Source of the DNA: Escherichia coli
Lineage (GTDB): Bacteria; Pseudomonadota; Gammaproteobacteria; Enterobacterales; Enterobacteriaceae
Direction: 5' to 3' (one strand)
Assembly (NCBI RefSeq): GCF_001677475.2
Contig: NZ_CP015229.1
DNA: 64,000 bases
This document shows positions 11,997 through 38,250 of the stretch, one piece after another (positions within the stretch are counted from its first letter, which is position 1; the number at the start of each line of letters is the position of its first letter). The translations under genes and the position numbers were made by a program. A model generated the notes under the pieces. It did no database searches. It worked only from the letters and a program-made list of their open reading frames with translations, and had not been told where the DNA came from.

Positions 11997-12881
11997 ATGA
12001 GAACAGGATGTGAACCGACCCGATTTGGTAATGAAGCAAAGACCATCATCCAGGGTGATGCATTAACCGAACTTAAAAAGATCCCCGCCGAAAGTGTAGA
12101 TCTGATCTTTGCCGACCCACCGTATAACATCGGTAAAAATTTTGATGGTCTGATCGAAGCCTGGAAAGAAGATCTGTTTATCGACTGGCTGTTTGAAGTA
12201 ATTGCAGAGTGCCACCGCGTTCTGAAAAAGCAGGGCAGCATGTACATCATGAACAGCACGGAAAACATGCCCTTTATCGATCTCCAGTGCCGCAAGCTTT
12301 TTACCATCAAAAGTCGCATCGTCTGGTCATATGACAGTTCTGGAGTGCAGGCGAAAAAACACTACGGCTCCATGTACGAACCCATCCTGATGATGGTGAA
12401 AGACGCAAAGAACTACACGTTCAACGGTGATGCTATTCTGGTAGAAGCCAAAACCGGATCGCAGCGCGCGTTGATCGATTATCGCAAAAATCCTCCACAG
12501 CCTTACAATCATCAAAAAGTACCGGGTAACGTCTGGGATTTTCCGCGCGTGCGTTATTTGATGGATGAATATGAGAATCACCCGACGCAAAAACCGGAAG
12601 CCTTACTGAAACGCATTATTCTCGCCTCTTCCAACCCAGGCGATATCGTTCTCGACCCGTTTGCCGGTAGCTTTACTACCGGTGCCGTAGCCGTCGCCAG
12701 CGGGCGAAAATTCATTGGTATTGAGATCAACAGCGAGTACATCAAAATGGGGCTTCGACGGCTGGATGTCACGTCGCATTACTCTGCGGAAGAACTGGCG
12801 AAAGTGAAAAAAAGAAAGACCAGCAACCTGTCAAAACGAAGCAGGTTAAGCGAAGTTGACCCCGATCTCATTGCAAAGTAA
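11997..12881 (+). CDS. yhdJ: DNA adenine methyltransferase YhdJ
   Basis: 294 aa; DPPY motif (FADPPYNIG) of N6-adenine methyltransferases. Confidence 0.9.
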   Translation: MRTGCEPTRFGNEAKTIIQGDALTELKKIPAESVDLIFADPPYNIGKNFDGLIEAWKEDLFIDWLFEVIAECHRVLKKQGSMYIMNSTENMPFIDLQCRKLFTIKSRIVWSYDSSGVQAKKHYGSMYEPILMMVKDAKNYTFNGDAILVEAKTGSQRALIDYRKNPPQPYNHQKVPGNVWDFPRVRYLMDEYENHPTQKPEALLKRIILASSNPGDIVLDPFAGSFTTGAVAVASGRKFIGIEINSEYIKMGLRRLDVTSHYSAEELAKVKKRKTSNLSKRSRLSEVDPDLIAK

Positions 12882-12964
12882 AGGAAGTGTAAGCCTGGTT
12901 TTCAGATTATTCATTTCGTGTATATTTCCTGCCAGACTTGGTTAAACATGCACAGGCTCAGGTA

Positions 12965-13144
12965 ATGATTCGCAAGTATTGGTGGCTCGTCGTTTTCGCT
13001 GTCTTCGTTTTTCTGTTTGATACTTTACTGATGCAGTGGATTGAACTGCTGGCAACAGAAACAGACAAATGCCGCAATATGAACTCAGTTAATCCACTAA
13101 AACTGGTTAACTGTGACGAACTGAATTTTCAGGACAGAATGTGA
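12965..13144 (+). CDS. yhdU: Small membrane protein YhdU
   Basis: 59 aa from MIRKYWWLVVFAVFVFLF; ORF extends upstream to 12938. Confidence 0.6.
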   Translation: MIRKYWWLVVFAVFVFLFDTLLMQWIELLATETDKCRNMNSVNPLKLVNCDELNFQDRM

Positions 13145-13146
13145 AT

Positions 13147-13809
13147 TTATATGACACTTAATTCATTCGTTTGATGAATTAATTTCGTTATGTTTTCATC
13201 TGGCATGAACATTCTTAATACGTTATCGACCAGTGCGGGTGCTTGTTTATAAAGATCATAACCCGCCATATTCATTAACCAGTTTTGAACAATTCCGCTG
13301 AAGGCACCATCAATAATAATCATCACAACATCTAAATCGAGATTATTTGCTATACAACCTTGTTGCTGACATGCCTGCAATACTTCGTGGAGAGTCTGCG
13401 GATTAAAACCCATCTTTTCGCGTATCACTCCCTCTGCCAGCATCTCATCATTAAATTCACATTTGTGATATAAGATTTTCAGCAACGACTGCTGGCGGGG
13501 AATTTTGGCAATATATTGCAAGCCAACAATCAATTTTTCACGCAATTGCTGAAACGGGTCATGCTCTAACCCAGCAGTCAAGTGATCCTGGATTAACTCC
13601 CGCAATGAAGGCTGTTGCAACCACATCTCATTAAACAGTTGGGTCTTGTTCTCGAAGTGCCAGTAGATAGCGCCACGCGTAACGTTAGCGGCGTCGGCAA
13701 TGTCGTTGAGCGTCGTCTTGCTTACGCCATGCTGCGCAAACTGGGCGATGGCAGTTTCAATCAGTTCTTGCCGGGTCTTCAGGGCTTCAGCTTTGGTTCT
13801 TTTTGCCAT
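13147..13809 (-). CDS. acrS: TetR-family repressor of acrEF (AcrS/EnvR)
   Basis: 220 aa; N-terminal TetR HTH; divergent from acrE. Confidence 0.9.
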   Translation of the reverse strand: MAKRTKAEALKTRQELIETAIAQFAQHGVSKTTLNDIADAANVTRGAIYWHFENKTQLFNEMWLQQPSLRELIQDHLTAGLEHDPFQQLREKLIVGLQYIAKIPRQQSLLKILYHKCEFNDEMLAEGVIREKMGFNPQTLHEVLQACQQQGCIANNLDLDVVMIIIDGAFSGIVQNWLMNMAGYDLYKQAPALVDNVLRMFMPDENITKLIHQTNELSVI

Positions 13810-14206
13810 GATTAATTATTCAGGAAATAAATATATTCGACACAGGATGAGAAAATAGCGAAGGTTAATCTATCATCTAATGTGTATTTATACGAGAGGG
13901 TAACATTGAGTTGCTATAAATCGTCAAATAAATAATATATATTATTTACCTAAGATACATTCACTACATCAATATATATTTCAATTTACGAGGTTTTAAT
14001 TCTGCTTCTTTCAGCCCGCGTCAAAACAAAACATTAGAATATTAATCTTTTTTTGCGTTTATGTGCCTTAGACGCCAGTATTCATAACTATTTCTTACAT
14101 CGACGAATGATAATTTGTAGGATAGCGAACTGTATTTTTCTTTCTGCGAGTTAACGCGTTGCCTTTTCGGGTAAATAACGCGCTTTTGGTTTTTTGAGGA
14201 ATAGTA

Positions 14207-15364
14207 ATGACGAAACATGCCAGGTTTTTCCTCCTGCCCTCCTTTATCCTGTTCTCCGCTGCTTTAATCGCAGGCTGTAACGATAAGGGAGAAGAGAAAG
14301 CTCACGTCGGTGAACCGCAGGTTACCGTTCATGTTGTGAAAACGGCCCCGCTAGAAGTTAAGACTGAATTACCAGGCCGCACCAACGCTTTCCGTATAGC
14401 CGAAGTTCGCCCACAGGTTAGCGGGATCGTACTGAATCGCAATTTCACTGAAGGCAGCGATGTGCAAGCAGGCCAGTCCCTGTACCAGATCGATCCCGCG
14501 ACCTATCAGGCAAATTATGACAGCGCGAAAGGCGAACTGGCGAAAAGTGAAGCCGCCGCCGCCATCGCGCATTTGACGGTAAAACGTTACGTTCCGCTCG
14601 TGGGTACGAAATACATCAGTCAGCAGGAGTACGACCAGGCCATTGCTGATGCTCGCCAGGCCGATGCCGCCGTGATTGCCACAAAAGCCACGGTCGAAAG
14701 CGCTCGCATCAATCTCGCTTATACCAAAGTGACTGCGCCAATTAGCGGACGTATCGGCAAATCGACTGTGACCGAAGGCGCTCTTGTCACTAATGGGCAA
14801 ACGACTGAACTGGCGACTGTCCAGCAGCTCGATCCTATCTACGTTGATGTGACCCAATCCAGCAACGATTTTATGAGGCTGAAGCAATCCGTAGAGCAAG
14901 GAAATTTGCATAAGGAAAACGCCACCAGCAACGTAGAGTTGGTCATGGAAAACGGTCAAACCTATCCCCTGAAAGGTACGCTGCAATTCTCCGATGTGAC
15001 CGTTGATGAAAGCACCGGCTCCATAACCCTACGTGCCGTCTTCCCTAACCCGCAACATACGCTTTTACCTGGTATGTTTGTGCGCGCACGGATTGATGAA
15101 GGCGTCCAATCTGATGCCATTCTTATCCCGCAACAAGGCGTTAGCCGCACACCGCGTGGTGATGCAACCGTGCTGATTGTTAACGATAAAAGTCAGGTTG
15201 AAGCGCGCCCTGTCGTTGCCAGCCAGGCGATTGGCGATAAATGGTTGATTAGCGAAGGTCTGAAATCTGGCGATCAAGTCATTGTCAGCGGCCTGCAAAA
15301 AGCGCGTCCGGGAGAGCAGGTTAAAGCCACTACCGATATCCCCGCAGATACTGCATCGAAGTAA
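14207..15364 (+). CDS. acrE: RND efflux periplasmic adaptor AcrE
   Basis: 385 aa; lipoprotein signal LIAGC. Confidence 0.93.
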
Positions 15365-15375
15365 GGCAATCTGAC

Positions 15376-18300
15376 ATGGCAAACTTTTTTATTCGACGAC
15401 CGATATTTGCATGGGTGCTGGCCATTATTCTGATGATGGCGGGCGCACTGGCGATCCTACAATTGCCCGTCGCCCAGTATCCAACCATTGCGCCGCCCGC
15501 GGTTTCTGTTTCGGCAAACTATCCGGGCGCTGATGCGCAGACCGTGCAGGATACGGTGACGCAGGTTATCGAACAGAATATGAATGGTATCGATAACCTG
15601 ATGTATATGTCCTCCACCAGCGATTCCGCCGGTAGCGTGACAATTACCCTTACCTTCCAGTCCGGGACCGATCCAGATATCGCGCAAGTGCAAGTGCAGA
15701 ACAAACTCCAGCTCGCCACGCCGTTGCTGCCGCAGGAGGTTCAGCAGCAGGGGATCAGTGTTGAAAAGTCCAGTAGCAGCTATTTGATGGTGGCGGGCTT
15801 TGTCTCTGATAACCCAGGCACCACACAGGACGATATCTCGGACTATGTGGCCTCTAACGTTAAAGATACGCTTAGCCGTCTGAATGGCGTCGGTGACGTA
15901 CAGCTTTTCGGCGCACAGTATGCGATGCGTATCTGGCTGGACGCCGATCTGCTAAACAAATATAAACTGACACCGGTTGATGTGATTAACCAGTTGAAGG
16001 TACAGAACGATCAGATCGCTGCCGGACAGTTGGGCGGAACGCCAGCGTTACCAGGGCAACAGTTGAATGCCTCGATTATTGCTCAAACGCGGTTAAAAAA
16101 TCCGGAAGAATTCGGCAAAGTGACCCTGCGCGTAAACAGTGACGGCTCGGTGGTACGCCTGAAAGATGTCGCACGGGTTGAACTTGGCGGTGAAAACTAT
16201 AACGTTATCGCTCGCATCAACGGAAAACCGGCGGCAGGTCTGGGTATTAAGCTGGCAACCGGTGCGAACGCTCTCGATACCGCGAAATCCATTAAGGCAA
16301 AACTAGCGGAATTACAGCCATTCTTTCCGCAGGGAATGAAGGTTCTCTACCCTTATGACACCACACCATTCGTCCAGCTTTCTATTCACGAAGTGGTAAA
16401 AACGCTGTTCGAAGCCATTATGCTGGTGTTCCTGGTGATGTATCTGTTCTTGCAGAATATGCGAGCAACGCTGATCCCCACCATTGCGGTACCTGTGGTG
16501 TTGTTAGGGACGTTTGCCATCCTCGCCGCTTTTGGTTACTCCATCAACACACTAACGATGTTCGGGATGGTGCTTGCCATCGGGCTGCTCGTCGATGATG
16601 CGATAGTGGTGGTGGAGAACGTCGAGCGCGTGATGATGGAGGATAAGCTCCCGCCAAAAGAAGCGACGGAAAAATCAATGTCGCAAATCCAGGGCGCACT
16701 GGTGGGTATCGCGATGGTGCTGTCAGCGGTATTTATTCCAATGGCATTCTTCGGCGGTTCTACTGGGGCAATTTACCGCCAGTTCTCTATCACCATCGTT
16801 TCGGCAATGGCGCTTTCTGTTCTGGTGGCATTGATTCTTACCCCAGCGTTATGTGCAACACTGCTCAAACCCGTCTCTGCTGAGCATCACGAAAATAAGG
16901 GCGGTTTCTTCGGCTGGTTTAATACCACCTTCGATCATAGCGTTAACCACTACACCAACAGCGTCGGCAAAATCCTCGGTTCCACAGGACGATATTTACT
17001 GATCTATGCGCTGATTGTTGCAGGAATGGTGGTGTTGTTTTTACGTCTTCCGTCTTCCGTCTTACCTGAAGAGGATCAGGGTGTCTTTCTGACTATGATT
17101 CAGTTACCCGCTGGCGCGACGCAAGAGCGGACGCAAAAAGTGTTGGATCAAGTGACGGATTACTATCTGAAGAACGAGAAAGCGAACGTTGAAAGTGTTT
17201 TTACGGTTAACGGCTTTAGCTTCAGCGGCCAGGCACAAAACGCCGGTATGGCCTTCGTCAGTCTGAAACCGTGGGAAGAGCGTAATGGTGATGAAAACAG
17301 TGCGGAAGCGGTAATCCATCGTGCCAAAATGGAATTGGGCAAGATTCGCGACGGTTTTGTCATTCCATTCAATATGCCAGCCATTGTTGAACTGGGCACG
17401 GCAACGGGTTTCGACTTTGAGTTAATTGATCAGGCTGGGCTGGGTCACGATGCCCTAACCCAGGCCCGTAACCAGTTGCTTGGCATGGCGGCGCAACATC
17501 CTGCCAGCTTAGTCAGCGTGCGTCCTAATGGCCTGGAAGACACCGCGCAGTTTAAACTGGAAGTTGACCAGGAAAAGGCGCAAGCATTAGGTGTTTCACT
17601 TTCTGACATCAATCAGACCATTTCAACGGCGTTGGGTGGGACTTACGTTAACGACTTCATCGACCGTGGTCGCGTGAAAAAGGTGTATGTTCAGGCGGAT
17701 GCCAAATTCCGTATGCTGCCAGAAGATGTCGATAAACTTTATGTCCGCAGCGCCAACGGCGAAATGGTGCCATTCTCGGCCTTTACCACTTCACATTGGG
17801 TATATGGCTCTCCGCGGCTGGAACGCTACAACGGTCTGCCGTCAATGGAGATTCAGGGGGAAGCCGCGCCAGGAACCAGTTCCGGCGATGCCATGGCGTT
17901 GATGGAAAACCTTGCGTCAAAATTACCTGCGGGCATTGGTTATGACTGGACGGGTATGTCGTATCAGGAACGCTTATCGGGAAACCAGGCTCCCGCTCTG
18001 GTAGCAATTTCCTTTGTGGTTGTTTTCCTGTGCCTTGCTGCACTCTATGAAAGCTGGTCAATTCCTGTCTCGGTTATGTTGGTCGTGCCGTTAGGGATTG
18101 TCGGCGTGCTACTGGCGGCGACACTCTTTAATCAAAAAAATGACGTCTACTTTATGGTGGGCTTGCTAACGACAATTGGCTTGTCGGCTAAAAACGCTAT
18201 TTTGATTGTTGAGTTCGCTAAAGATCTCATGGAGAAAGAGGGTAAAGGTGTTGTTGAAGCGACACTAATGGCAGTACGTATGCGTCTGCGTCCTATCCTG

Positions 18301-18480
18301 ATGACCTCTCTCGCCTTTATTCTCGGCGTATTACCGCTAGCTATCAGTAACGGTGCCGGCAGTGGCGCGCAGAACGCAGTGGGTATCGGGGTAATGGGCG
18401 GGATGGTCTCTGCAACGTTGCTGGCAATCTTCTTCGTGCCGGTGTTCTTTGTGGTGATCCGCCGTTGCTTTAAAGGATAA
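15376..18480 (+). CDS. acrF: RND multidrug efflux pump AcrF
   Basis: 1034 aa; AcrB-like 12-TM transporter. Confidence 0.95.
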
Positions 18481-18491
18481 ATCAGAAACAT

Positions 18492-18520
18492 AAAGGCACT
18501 TTCGGGTGCCTTTATTATTT
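18492..18520 (+). terminator. Rho-independent terminator after acrF
   Basis: AAAGGCAC-TTTCGGG-TGCCTTT hairpin plus T-rich tail. Confidence 0.7.
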
Positions 18521-18732
18521 CCAGTGAAACCCATAAAAATTAATAAGATATTCCTCTACTCACTCTTTAAAAACTTTCTATAGTTCCCGCTCCCTTCACT
18601 ATTTTTACAATTCACATAATTTGTCATTATTCATTCCGCAAGATTTATAACCTCCAGTGATAAAATGGCATTCAGCTCGTTAATAAGAGAGTTAACTTAT
18701 TAAGCGTTAGCGTTTATTACTGAGGTAACACC

Positions 18733-18954
18733 ATGAAAAGATTAATTCCTGTGGCATTGCTCACCGCATTGCTGGCGGGCTGTGCTCACGATTCGCCCTG
18801 CGTTCCGGTTTATGACGATCAGGGTCGACTGGTTCACACTAATACCTGTATGAAAGGCACGACTCAGGATAACTGGGAAACGGCTGGGGCTATTGCTGGC
18901 GGGGCAGCAGCTGTTGCTGGCCTGACGATGGGGATCATCGCTCTGTCGAAATAA
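18733..18954 (+). CDS. yhdV: Small lipoprotein YhdV
   Basis: 73 aa; lipobox LLAGC. Confidence 0.8.
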   Translation: MKRLIPVALLTALLAGCAHDSPCVPVYDDQGRLVHTNTCMKGTTQDNWETAGAIAGGAAAVAGLTMGIIALSK

Positions 18955-19288
18955 CTGAACAGAGCGCGGAGTACCGCGCTCTGTTTAACGATACAGTATC
19001 TCACCATAAGATAAAATATTGCTATATTCTGCTGGGTAATTCCCTGCTGATTTAGCATGTTATATCGCGTTATTTCGCTGCTTTCGAAATAACGCATCAA
19101 TTTAATTTTCACACTTCCTACCAGAAATATACTCACGCTAACAATCATTATTCTGCTTAGTAAAAAACGCGTAAATATTTTGCGCCAAAATGTGGCGCAT
19201 GTTTCATTTTCGCACCATTGCGGGGCGCTGTTTTTATTATTTCCTGTCTACACTCAGCTTATTGCGACGCGAAATCGTGCGCAAAAGC

Positions 19289-31198: not shown

Positions 31199-31771
31199 TT
31201 ACCCCTGTCGAAACAGTTCACCCGTCAGGGCATCGCGGATTTCTGAAGGATTTAAACGCCCCCCCGTTTCACCAGGCACAACCGGGAACGCCGCGCCAAA
31301 TTGTGCGCGAACTTCGTCTACTGTTCGACAAGGTGGCAATCCACTCAAGTTGGCACTGGTAGAAACCAGCGGTTTACCATAAGCCTGGCACAAAGCAACC
31401 ACCAACGGATGGTCGGTGACTCGTACAGCAAGCGAATCAAAGCGGCCCGTCAACCAGCGCGGTGTTGTCGCAGGCGCGGGAAAAACAAAGGTGACAGGAC
31501 CTGGCCAGCGAGAAAATATAGTTTCACGCTGCGCGTCAGTCAGCATGGTGTCATCAATATAGGGTTTAAGCTGCTCGTAATTTGCGGCGATTAGAATCAG
31601 CCCCTTATCAACCGGACGCTGTTTTAACTCCAACAGTCGCATCACTGCTGTTTCGCTATCAGGATCGCACCCGACACCGAAAACGGCTTCCGTTGGATAG
31701 GCGATGACACGTTCTTCATTGAGGACATCTATCGCAGCTGCGATAGCGTCTCCTTGCAGGTTATTATTCAC
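31199..31771 (-). CDS. tsaC: Threonylcarbamoyl-AMP synthase
   Basis: 190 aa from GTG (VNNNLQ...); YrdC/Sua5 fold. Confidence 0.88.
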
Positions 31772-36873: not shown

Positions 36874-38250
36874 ATGAAAATTATCATTCTGGGTGCCGGC
36901 CAGGTTGGCGGCACACTGGCGGAAAACCTGGTTGGCGAGAACAACGATATTACTGTTGTCGATACCAACGGTGAGCGTCTGCGGACCTTACAGGATAAAT
37001 TTGACCTGCGGGTCGTGCAGGGGCATGGCTCTCATCCACGCGTATTGCGGGAGGCAGGTGCCGACGACGCCGATATGCTGGTTGCTGTAACCAGTTCAGA
37101 TGAAACCAATATGGTTGCCTGCCAGGTAGCCTACTCACTTTTCAACACCCCTAATCGCATCGCTCGTATCCGCTCACCAGACTACGTGCGCGATGCCGAT
37201 AAGCTATTTCATTCAGATGCTGTGCCGATTGATCATCTGATCGCACCAGAGCAGTTGGTTATCGATAATATTTACCGACTGATTGAGTATCCCGGCGCAT
37301 TGCAGGTGGTGAACTTCGCTGAGGGTAAAGTCAGCCTGGCTGTGGTTAAAGCCTATTATGGCGGCCCGCTGATTGGTAATGCACTTTCGACCATGCGCGA
37401 ACATATGCCACATATCGATACTCGTGTGGCAGCAATTTTCCGCCACGATCGCCCCATTCGTCCGCAAGGTTCGACCATTGTTGAAGCTGGTGATGAAGTG
37501 TTCTTTATTGCCGCTTCACAGCATATCCGCGCGGTGATGAGTGAATTACAGCGACTGGAAAAACCGTATAAGCGGATCATGCTGGTTGGTGGCGGTAATA
37601 TCGGTGCAGGGCTGGCGCGTCGTCTGGAAAAAGATTACAGCGTTAAACTCATCGAACGTAATCAGCAGCGCGCTGCTGAACTGGCGGAAAAGTTGCAGAA
37701 TACGATCGTCTTTTTTGGTGATGCGTCGGATCAAGAACTGCTGGCTGAAGAACATATCGATCAAGTTGATCTGTTTATTGCCGTCACCAACGATGACGAG
37801 GCCAATATCATGTCCGCCATGCTTGCCAAACGTATGGGTGCGAAAAAGGTGATGGTATTGATCCAGCGTCGCGCTTATGTGGATCTGGTTCAGGGGAGCG
37901 TGATCGATATTGCGATTTCACCACAACAAGCAACTATTTCTGCGTTGCTTAGCCATGTGCGAAAAGCAGATATTGTTGGTGTTTCCTCATTGCGCCGCGG
38001 CGTAGCAGAAGCTATTGAAGCCGTTGCTCACGGTGATGAAAGCACCTCACGCGTTGTCGGCAGAGTCATTGACGAAATCAAGCTACCGCCAGGAACGATT
38101 ATTGGAGCGGTGGTACGTGGAAACGACGTGATGATTGCCAATGACAATCTGCGCATTGAGCAAGGCGATCACGTAATTATGTTCCTCACAGATAAAAAGT
38201 TTATTACCGACGTCGAAAGACTGTTCCAGCCAAGTCCTTTCTTCTTGTAA
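36874..38250 (+). CDS. trkA: Potassium uptake protein TrkA
   Basis: 458 aa; two Rossmann GxGxxG motifs ([19 protein letters not shown]). Confidence 0.95.

What the first reader, a model, noticed from the sequence alone, without database searches (positions are those of the whole stretch)
13810..14206. AT-rich palindrome in the acrS-acrE divergent region
The 397-bp region between acrS and acrE is strongly AT-rich and contains a perfect 20-bp palindrome TAAATAATAT|ATATTATTTA at 13929..13948. It could be the operator of the TetR-type AcrS repressor, or part of an H-NS nucleation tract, since acrEF is normally silent.
Basis: seen in the sequence. Interest (0 to 1): 0.25.

Follow-up and report, generated by a model that had tools for sequence, protein, structure and literature searches.

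The report
Chance AT palindrome in acrS–acrE spacer
The perfect 20-bp A/T palindrome between the acrS repressor gene and the acrEF efflux operon is real, but it is a young, variable by-product of an AT-rich, H-NS-bound spacer and is unlikely to be the AcrS operator, so the finding is ordinary.

Summary
TAAATAATAT|ATATTATTTA lies at 13929-13948, in the 397-bp, 69% A+T spacer between acrS (minus strand) and acrE (plus strand).

It is unusual locally: 5 of 5000 shuffles of the spacer reach a 10-nt arm. Over the whole 64-kb window it is not (8% of shuffles).

It is not conserved.
- About 65% of 5,227 complete E. coli genomes carry it intact.
- At least 31% carry uncompensated variants.
- No other Escherichia species, Citrobacter, Salmonella or Pseudocitrobacter has it.
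- Outgroups indicate it arose from substitutions to A at palindrome positions 6 and 11 (G-to-A relative to the second E. coli haplotype).

It does not resemble the experimentally defined AcrR/EnvR operator TACATACATTTGTGAATGTATGTA. It scores 12/20 on the half-sites, below the mean best score of shuffled spacers.

The best operator-like vestige lies next door, at 13952-13982. It is conserved across genera, but its half-sites sit 5 bp further apart than in the acrAB operator.

The H-NS reading fits published data: the K-12 envR/acrE spacer is flagged as an H-NS site, and hns loss derepresses acrEF. Nothing singles out the palindrome within that tract.

The symmetry is most likely incidental to a 23-nt pure A/T run. 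Interest is low.

The parts
13147..13809 (-). acrS (envR), TetR-family repressor gene, 220 aa
   Evidence: ORF. It is 97.7% identical to K-12 AcrS.
13810..14206 (.). acrS-acrE divergent intergenic spacer, 397 bp, 68.8% A+T
   Evidence: It is present in 5230 of 5426 complete E. coli genomes at 90-97.5% identity.
13926..13948 (.). 23-nt run of pure A/T, the longest in the 64-kb window, which contains the palindrome
13929..13948 (.). Perfect 20-bp palindrome TAAATAATAT|ATATTATTTA (the finding)
   Evidence: It is polymorphic in E. coli and absent in other species. The hairpin is weak: -3.2 kcal/mol as DNA and -2.3 as RNA.
13906..13936 (+). Published best-match prediction of an acrEF promoter, TTGAGT-19-AATAAT. 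Its -10 hexamer (13931-13936) lies in the left arm of the palindrome.
   Evidence: PMC3946193 Table 1, mapped onto. The TTGAGT hexamer is not conserved outside E. coli. It is a prediction only; no start site has been mapped.
13952..13982 (.). Conserved block ATAyATTCAy-N-AATrTATATTTC, a degenerate inverted repeat that carries an AcrR/AcrS-operator half-site. It is the best, though still weak, operator candidate in the spacer.
   Evidence: The 10-mer ATACATTCAC (13955-13964) equals one half of the acrAB operator, is unique in the 64 kb, and has p = 0.012 against shuffles. In E. albertii the repeat is perfect: ATACATTCA-N5-TGAATGTAT. The half-site pair scores 15/20 here (p = 0.13) and 17/20 in E. 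albertii. Mean conservation is 0.76, against 0.65 for the palindrome.
13971..13999 (-). Predicted acrS promoter TTAAAA-17-TATATT (-35 at 13999-13994, -10 at 13976-13971)
   Evidence: Consensus scan and the same prediction in PMC3946193. It has not been mapped experimentally. If it is used, the palindrome would lie about +16 to +35 in the acrS leader (inference).
14094..14126 (+). Most conserved part of the spacer: promoter-like CTTACA-N18-TAGGAT(AGC), a candidate acrE core promoter
   Evidence: Mean column identity is 0.90 over 16 species, and the top-ranked 20-nt windows start at 14107-14114. The promoter assignment is my inference.
14127..14206 (+). Conserved acrE leader ending in the Shine-Dalgarno sequence GAGGAA
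   Evidence: Mean column identity is 0.83. There is no supported consensus structure: 3 pairs only, and z-score 0.02.
14207..18480 (+). acrE (14207-15364) and acrF (15376-18480), RND efflux operon

Best explanation
The palindrome is not a dedicated protein-binding site. It is an incidental and evolutionarily recent symmetry inside a 23-nt stretch of pure A/T, at the most AT-rich point of the acrS-acrE spacer.

The spacer as a whole is the known H-NS-bound, AT-rich control region that keeps acrEF, and probably acrS, silent. The palindrome contributes to that only as any TpA-rich A/T tract would: a narrow minor groove and many TpA steps. Like much AT-rich DNA, it also carries several -10-like hexamers on both strands.

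AcrS, whose DNA-binding domain shares the segment VTRGAIYWHF with AcrR, is expected to read TACATACATT-type half-sites. The only vestige of these lies 7 to 30 bp to the right of the palindrome.

What is shown: the sequence, its statistics, its polymorphism, its absence in relatives, and its lack of similarity to the operator. What is taken from the literature: H-NS binding to the K-12 spacer and derepression in hns mutants. What is inferred: that H-NS covers the palindrome itself, and that the symmetry has no function.
For: 1. Not conserved within the species. Exact 40-mers carrying the perfect palindrome occur in 1961 + 1412 = 3373 of 5227 E. coli genomes (64.5%). The variant TAAATGATATGTATTATTTA occurs in 1118 (21.4%), TAAATAACGTTTATTATTTA in 466 (8.9%) and TAAACAATATATATTATTTA in 17. 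All of these changes are uncompensated.

2. Absent in five other Escherichia lineages, six Citrobacter, two Salmonella and two Pseudocitrobacter. All of them keep the acrS-acrE arrangement and a central spacer of 71-80% A+T.

3. Derived. No outgroup has A at palindrome positions 6 and 11; the nearest outgroup has C and G, and the 21% E. coli haplotype has G at both.

4. Conservation rank. The palindrome is at the 35th percentile of 20-nt windows of the spacer over all 16 species, and at the 18th within Escherichia.

5. Statistics. 8% of locally shuffled 64-kb windows contain a palindrome at least as long.

6. No operator similarity. It scores 12/20, against a mean best score of 13.7 in shuffles. 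The known EnvR site is the 24-bp acrAB palindrome, and AcrS and AcrR share VTRGAIYWHF.

7. H-NS. The envR/acrE spacer is flagged as an H-NS-binding spacer that also binds RpoD holoenzyme (PMC3946193). H-NS repression of acrEF is stated in PMC8678522 and PMC4291234.

8. Weak hairpin and no Rfam family.
Against: - Locally the palindrome is unlikely (about 0.1% of spacer shuffles), and it is the majority allele in E. coli.
- A published prediction places the acrEF -10 hexamer inside it, so a role in promoter function is not excluded.
- No footprint, ChIP profile or start-site map at base resolution was available to me.
- The primary paper on AcrS (Hirakawa 2008) could not be read. Whether AcrS was ever tested on this spacer is therefore unknown to me.
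- Lack of conservation argues against an ancient function, not against a lineage-specific one.
Confidence: 0.62

Rival explanations
1. The palindrome is the operator of AcrS. A TetR-type dimer binds the two 10-bp arms and represses acrE and/or acrS.
For: It is a perfect dyad in the divergent region next to a TetR-family gene, which is the classic arrangement. Each arm matches the AcrR half-site TACATACATT at 6 of 10 positions (12/20 for the pair).
Against: - 12/20 is below the mean best score of shuffled spacers.
- The known AcrR/EnvR site contains C/G positions and a 4-bp centre, and AcrS shares VTRGAIYWHF with AcrR.
- The dyad is broken in at least 31% of E. coli genomes and is absent in all other species that keep acrS.
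- The literature read here describes EnvR as predominantly a repressor of acrAB, not acrEF (PMC9780535).
Confidence: 0.04
2. The palindrome is a specific high-affinity nucleation site from which H-NS spreads over both promoters. Its appearance in part of E. coli strengthened silencing of acrEF.
For: - It is the longest pure A/T run in the window and has the highest TpA density in the spacer: 9 TpA per 40 nt and 82% A+T.
- The spacer is flagged as an H-NS site.
- The changes that created it removed G or C from the tract.
Against: - The H-NS data read here have only spacer resolution.
- The recalled H-NS motif TCGATAAATT has no match with 2 or fewer mismatches in the spacer.
- Relatives without the palindrome have equally AT-rich cores, and in Salmonella acrEF is also H-NS-repressed (title of reference 34). 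The palindrome is therefore not needed for silencing.
Confidence: 0.15
3. The palindrome is a symmetric core-promoter element. Overlapping -10-like hexamers on both strands (AATAAT, TAATAT, TATATT, TATTAT) let RNA polymerase start divergently towards acrE and acrS once H-NS is removed, coupling the two genes.
For: - RpoD holoenzyme alone binds this spacer in genomic SELEX, and the best-match acrEF promoter predicted there has its -10 at 13931-13936, inside the left arm.
- acrEF and envR rise together in a clinical Salmonella isolate, and co-initiation of the two has been proposed (PMC9780535).
- By symmetry, the same hexamers occur on the minus strand.
Against: - The prediction is only a hexamer match, with a poor 19-bp spacer.
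- Its -35 hexamer and the palindrome are not conserved.
- The part of the spacer conserved across genera is a different promoter-like core at 14094-14126.
- The consensus scan found no plus-strand promoter here at 9/12 or better.
- No suitably spaced -35 exists on the minus strand (my reading).
Confidence: 0.13
4. The palindrome acts through structure, either as a cruciform in supercoiled DNA or as a hairpin in the acrS or acrE leader RNA.
For: The hairpin folds better than shuffles of the same 30 nt: z = -3.2 as DNA and -3.4 as RNA.
Against: - Absolute stability is tiny: -3.2 kcal/mol as DNA and -2.3 as RNA, with all pairs A-T.
- In the 76-nt context the fold is no better than shuffles (z = -0.7 and -0.3).
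- The changes seen in other strains are not compensatory.
- No Rfam family matches.
Confidence: 0.03

Closest known systems
AcrR/EnvR operator of the acrAB promoter (24-bp palindrome TACATACATTTGTGAATGTATGTA)
   Same: Both are dyad-symmetric sequences in the divergent region between a TetR-family repressor gene and an RND pump operon. AcrS (EnvR) is known to bind the acrAB one (PMC9780535; sequence verified).
   Different: The finding is 20 bp of pure A/T with no central spacer, and it matches the half-sites at only 12/20. It is polymorphic and lineage-restricted. The neighbouring block at 13952-13982 shares an exact 10-mer with the operator, but its half-sites are 5 bp further apart.
H-NS-silenced AT-rich promoter regions of E. 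coli, including the envR/acrE spacer itself as catalogued by genomic SELEX
   Same: The spacer is 69% A+T with an 82% A+T, TpA-rich core. It is flagged as H-NS-binding, and acrEF is reported to be derepressed without H-NS.
   Different: Nothing in this class of region requires a palindrome. The symmetry is extra, and relatives silenced by H-NS lack it.
Bidirectional promoters that arise from the near-symmetry of the -10 element (recalled from memory: Warman et al. 2021; not read here)
   Same: Overlapping -10-like hexamers occur on both strands, between two divergent genes.
   Different: No start sites are known here and no good -35 is present. The conserved promoter-like core lies 160 bp away.

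Membership tests
TetR-family (AcrR/AcrS) operator | Inverted repeat built from the half-site recognised by the regulator (TACATACATT for AcrR/EnvR) | tested here: not met
   The palindrome scores 12/20, below the mean best score of shuffles, 13.7. The full 24-mer finds nothing better than 14/24 anywhere in the spacer (p = 0.75).
TetR-family (AcrR/AcrS) operator | Conserved together with the regulator gene in related genomes | tested here: not met
   Absent in all 14 non-E. coli acrS-acrE loci. Intact in only about 65% of E. coli genomes. 18th to 35th percentile of conservation within the spacer.
TetR-family (AcrR/AcrS) operator | Overlaps the core promoter of the regulated gene | tested here: inconclusive
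   It overlaps a predicted, unconserved acrEF -10 hexamer. It lies 146 bp or more upstream of the conserved promoter-like core at 14094-14126. No start site has been mapped.
TetR-family (AcrR/AcrS) operator | Bound by the purified regulator | not testable with these tools
   This needs an EMSA or footprint. The primary AcrS paper could not be retrieved.
H-NS-bound silenced region | High A+T content with many TpA steps | tested here: met
   82% A+T and 9 TpA per 40 nt at 13910-13969. It also holds the longest pure A/T run in the window.
H-NS-bound silenced region | Experimental H-NS binding, and derepression of the adjacent genes in hns mutants | not testable with these tools
   From the literature only. 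The spacer is marked HNS in PMC3946193, and H-NS repression of acrEF is stated in PMC8678522 and PMC4291234. The resolution is the whole spacer, in K-12.
H-NS-bound silenced region | Match to the 10-bp high-affinity motif TCGATAAATT (recalled from memory) | tested here: not met
   No match with 2 or fewer mismatches in 13810-14206.
Symmetric bidirectional promoter | -10-like hexamers on both strands with divergent start sites | tested here: inconclusive
   The hexamers are present by symmetry. Start sites are unknown. The consensus scan (9/12 or better) reports none at the palindrome.
Structured nucleic-acid element (cruciform or RNA hairpin) | A stable fold supported by compensatory changes | tested here: not met
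   -3.2 kcal/mol as DNA and -2.3 as RNA. Natural variants break pairs without compensation. No Rfam match.

The most novel reading that the evidence does not exclude
The palindrome is a lineage-specific gain of function. Substitutions to A at two positions created, in roughly two thirds of E. coli, a symmetric cluster of -10 hexamers that doubles as a high-affinity H-NS site. In those strains acrE and acrS would fire divergently from one H-NS-gated bidirectional promoter, while strains with the G-containing allele regulate the pair differently. That would be a natural regulatory polymorphism of a cryptic multidrug pump.
Probability: 0.1. Interest if true: 0.35.

Novelty: already known. Interest (0 to 1): 0.1.

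Why it matters
acrEF is a silent backup for the main multidrug pump AcrAB. It becomes clinically relevant when activated, for example by loss of H-NS or by insertion sequences upstream. Knowing which bases of the acrS-acrE spacer are regulatory would help predict activating mutations.

This analysis says the eye-catching palindrome is not one of the constrained elements. Attention should go instead to the conserved block at 13952-13982 and to the conserved promoter-like core at 14094-14126.

If the palindrome did matter, the common natural alleles would give a ready-made test of H-NS or promoter function. The evidence favours no specific role.

Tried and rejected
- Primary papers could not be read: Hirakawa 2008, Kobayashi 2001, Olliver 2005 and Jellen-Ritter 2001 are not held. 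Insertion-sequence sites and any AcrS test on this spacer therefore remain unknown to me.
- Metagenome scan with the 15-mer GTTGCTATAAATCGT: the pattern was too short for that collection. Of the loci returned, one was E. coli (L156, palindrome intact).
- Homology between the acrR-acrA and acrS-acrE spacers: by eye, TTTACAT...TACCATAGC resembles CTTACAT...TAGGATAGC. The local alignment score is no better than shuffles (220 of 500 reach it), so I make no claim of a vestigial operator in the acrE promoter spacer. The 14/24 match at 14096-14119 is at chance level.
- MarA/SoxS/Rob box in the conserved TTTTTTTGyGTTTATGTGCC block: the consensus scan shows no enrichment and no hit there with 3 or fewer mismatches.
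- H-NS 10-mer motif: no hit in the spacer.
- Rfam: only sub-threshold chance hits.
- Consensus structure of the acrE leader: 3 pairs, not supported.
- RNA hairpin in a putative acrS leader: the 147-nt fold has z = -1.7, with 12 of 200 shuffles folding as well. This is not convincing.
- Left/right covariation (C/T against G/A) in the conserved inverted repeat: none was seen when reading the alignment.

Full report
**Observation.** The window carries yhdJ, yhdU, acrS (13147-13809, minus strand), acrE (14207-15364) and acrF (15376-18480). The proteins are 97.7% (AcrS) and 98.4% (AcrE) identical to those of E. coli K-12, and RefSeq annotates the homologous K-12 locus as acrS/envR, acrE and acrF. 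Over 8 kb the window is at most 98.6% identical to any of 5,426 complete E. coli genomes. It therefore comes from an E. coli/Shigella-group chromosome that is not in that set.

The 397-bp spacer 13810-14206 is 68.8% A+T, and G+C falls to 26% in 13800-13999. TAAATAATAT|ATATTATTTA lies exactly at 13929-13948 and cannot be extended.

**Is it more than chance?** At the local scale, yes. An arm of 10 nt or more occurred in 5 of 5000 dinucleotide-preserving shuffles of the spacer, and in 9 of 5000 shuffles of its AT core.

When every 400-nt block of the window is shuffled separately, 8% of shuffled windows contain a perfect palindrome at least as long. The palindrome sits in a 23-nt run of pure A/T (13926-13948), the longest such run in the window. 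In such a run symmetry is cheap.

**Conservation within E. coli.** In twelve E. coli spacers read base by base, six have the perfect palindrome. The others carry TAAACAATAT.., TAAATGATATGTATTATTTA or TAAATAACGTTTATTATTTA, with one to three broken pairs and never a compensating change.

I then counted exact 40-mers (15 invariant flank bases plus the palindrome) across the complete genomes. Of 5,227 genomes with the locus:

| Allele | Genomes | Share | Calls |
|---|---|---|---|
| Perfect palindrome (C or T at 13925) | 1961 + 1412 = 3373 | 64.5% | 59, 60 |
| TAAATGATATGTATTATTTA | 1118 | 21.4% | 61 |
| TAAATAACGTTTATTATTTA | 466 | 8.9% | 74 |
| TAAACAATATATATTATTTA | 17 | 0.3% | 75 |
| Other | 253 | about 5% | by subtraction |

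**Conservation between species.** A scan of one genome per species with AcrS returned 16 orthologous loci with acrE divergently upstream. None of the 14 spacers from other Escherichia lineages, Citrobacter, Salmonella or Pseudocitrobacter has the palindrome. All of them keep a central spacer of 71-80% A+T.

No outgroup has A at palindrome positions 6 and 11. The nearest outgroup has C and G, and the 21% E. coli allele has G at both. The perfect dyad is therefore derived, by two substitutions that removed G or C from the tract.

In the 16-species alignment the palindrome ranks at the 35th percentile of conservation among 20-nt windows of the spacer. Within Escherichia it ranks at the 18th.

**Is it the AcrS operator?** The site at which EnvR/AcrS binding has been demonstrated is the 24-bp AcrR palindrome of the acrAB promoter. 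Mutating it abolishes EnvR binding (PMC9780535). I verified the sequence TACATACATTTGTGAATGTATGTA in the K-12 acrR-acrA spacer.

AcrS and AcrR are 45% identical over the N-terminal domain and share the segment VTRGAIYWHF. That this is the recognition helix, and that the two proteins therefore read the same half-site, is my inference from TetR-family architecture.

The mean best score of shuffled spacers is 13.7.
- The full 24-mer finds nothing above chance anywhere in the spacer: 14/24, p = 0.75.
- The best half-site pair, 15/20 (p = 0.13), is at 13952-13980, immediately to the right of the palindrome.

That neighbouring block contains the 10-mer ATACATTCAC (13955-13964). The 10-mer is identical to one operator half including its centre, is unique in the 64 kb, and is matched by only 1.2% of shuffles. 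The block is conserved across genera as ATAyATTCAy-N-AATrTATATTTC. In E. albertii it is a perfect inverted repeat, ATACATTCA-N5-TGAATGTAT, which scores 17/20. Its half-sites are 5 bp further apart than in the acrAB operator, and in E. coli the right half has decayed.

This block is therefore a better candidate than the palindrome, but it is not a demonstrated operator. It may equally be part of the acrS promoter. The absence of a good operator fits the statement, relayed in PMC9780535, that EnvR is mainly a repressor of acrAB rather than acrEF. I could not read the primary paper.

**H-NS and promoters.** In the genomic SELEX catalogue for E. coli K-12 W3110, the envR/acrE spacer binds RpoD holoenzyme and is marked as containing an H-NS site (PMC3946193). 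Two papers read here state that H-NS represses acrEF in E. coli and Salmonella. The palindrome lies at the spacer's maximum of A+T and TpA steps, so H-NS very probably covers it.

That evidence has only spacer resolution. The 10-bp H-NS motif I recalled has no near match in the spacer. Relatives without the palindrome are equally AT-rich.

The same catalogue predicts the promoters envR TTAAAA-17-TATATT and acrEF TTGAGT-19-AATAAT. The first is minus strand 13999-13971 and was also found by the scan. The -10 hexamer of the second (13931-13936) falls in the left arm of the palindrome. That prediction is a hexamer match with a 19-bp spacer and an unconserved -35.

The part of the spacer that is actually conserved across genera is CTTACA-N18-TAGGATAGC at 14094-14126, with column identity 0.90. 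I take this as the more likely acrE core promoter (inference). Start sites have not been mapped in anything I could read.

**Structure.** The hairpin is worth -3.2 kcal/mol as DNA and -2.3 as RNA. In its 76-nt context it folds no better than shuffles. No Rfam family matches.

**Conclusion.** The dyad is real, but it is young, polymorphic, unlike the known AcrS site, and explicable by composition. The most likely account (about 0.6) is that it is an incidental symmetry within the H-NS-coated AT core of a known silenced control region.

| Reading | Probability |
|---|---|
| Incidental symmetry in the H-NS-coated AT core | about 0.6 |
| Specific H-NS nucleation site | 0.15 |
| Symmetric -10 cluster giving divergent transcription | 0.13 |
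| AcrS operator | 0.04 |
| Structural element | 0.03 |

The natural alleles offer a direct experimental test.

Noticed in passing
window 13952-13982: A conserved degenerate inverted repeat lies next to the palindrome. It contains the 10-mer ATACATTCAC, which is identical to one half of the acrAB AcrR/EnvR operator. In E. albertii the repeat is perfect (ATACATTCA-N5-TGAATGTAT), with the half-sites 5 bp further apart than in acrAB. In E. coli the right half has decayed and is itself polymorphic.
   Followed up: partly
window 14094-14126: The most conserved stretch of the spacer across Escherichia, Citrobacter, Salmonella and Pseudocitrobacter is promoter-like (CTTACA-N18-TAGGATAGC). It does not coincide with the acrEF promoter predicted in the genomic SELEX catalogue (13906-13936).
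   Followed up: partly
window 14127-14206: The acrE leader is strongly conserved in sequence (0.97 within Escherichia) and includes a T-rich run just before the Shine-Dalgarno sequence. RNAalifold supports only 3 pairs, and the fold is no better than shuffles.
   Followed up: yes
L006 (E. coli strain 035152, NZ_CP101705.1) 3001-3830: An IS1 sits about 61-76 bp from the acrS start codon. acrE, acrF and the start of the next amino-acid ABC transporter gene are missing. This is a natural IS1-associated deletion that begins inside this spacer.
   Followed up: no
window 13810-14206 against the E. coli collection: 196 of 5426 complete E. coli genomes have no match to the spacer, 16 have only partial coverage, and there are 20 more matching places than matching records. 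These cases, possibly deletions or insertions in the spacer, were not examined.
   Followed up: no
window 31729-31746 and 37662-37679: Two perfect 18-bp palindromes containing G and C (CTATCGCAGCTGCGATAG and TCAGCAGCGCGCTGCTGA) are the next longest in the window.
   Followed up: no
window 13934-13943 and 13971-13980: The self-complementary 10-mer AATATATATT occurs twice, 37 bp apart. One copy is the core of the palindrome. The other is the decayed right half of the conserved inverted repeat, where relatives have AATGTATATT.
   Followed up: partly
window 11000-19000: No complete E. coli genome in the collection is more than 98.6% identical to this 8-kb stretch. The source is therefore a lineage, possibly a Shigella or a divergent E. 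coli, that the collection does not represent.
   Followed up: partly
window 14306-14493: A sub-threshold Rfam hit to Bcj14, a Burkholderia sRNA, lies inside the acrE coding sequence (33.6 bits against a gathering score of 59, E = 5e-4). It is probably chance.
   Followed up: no
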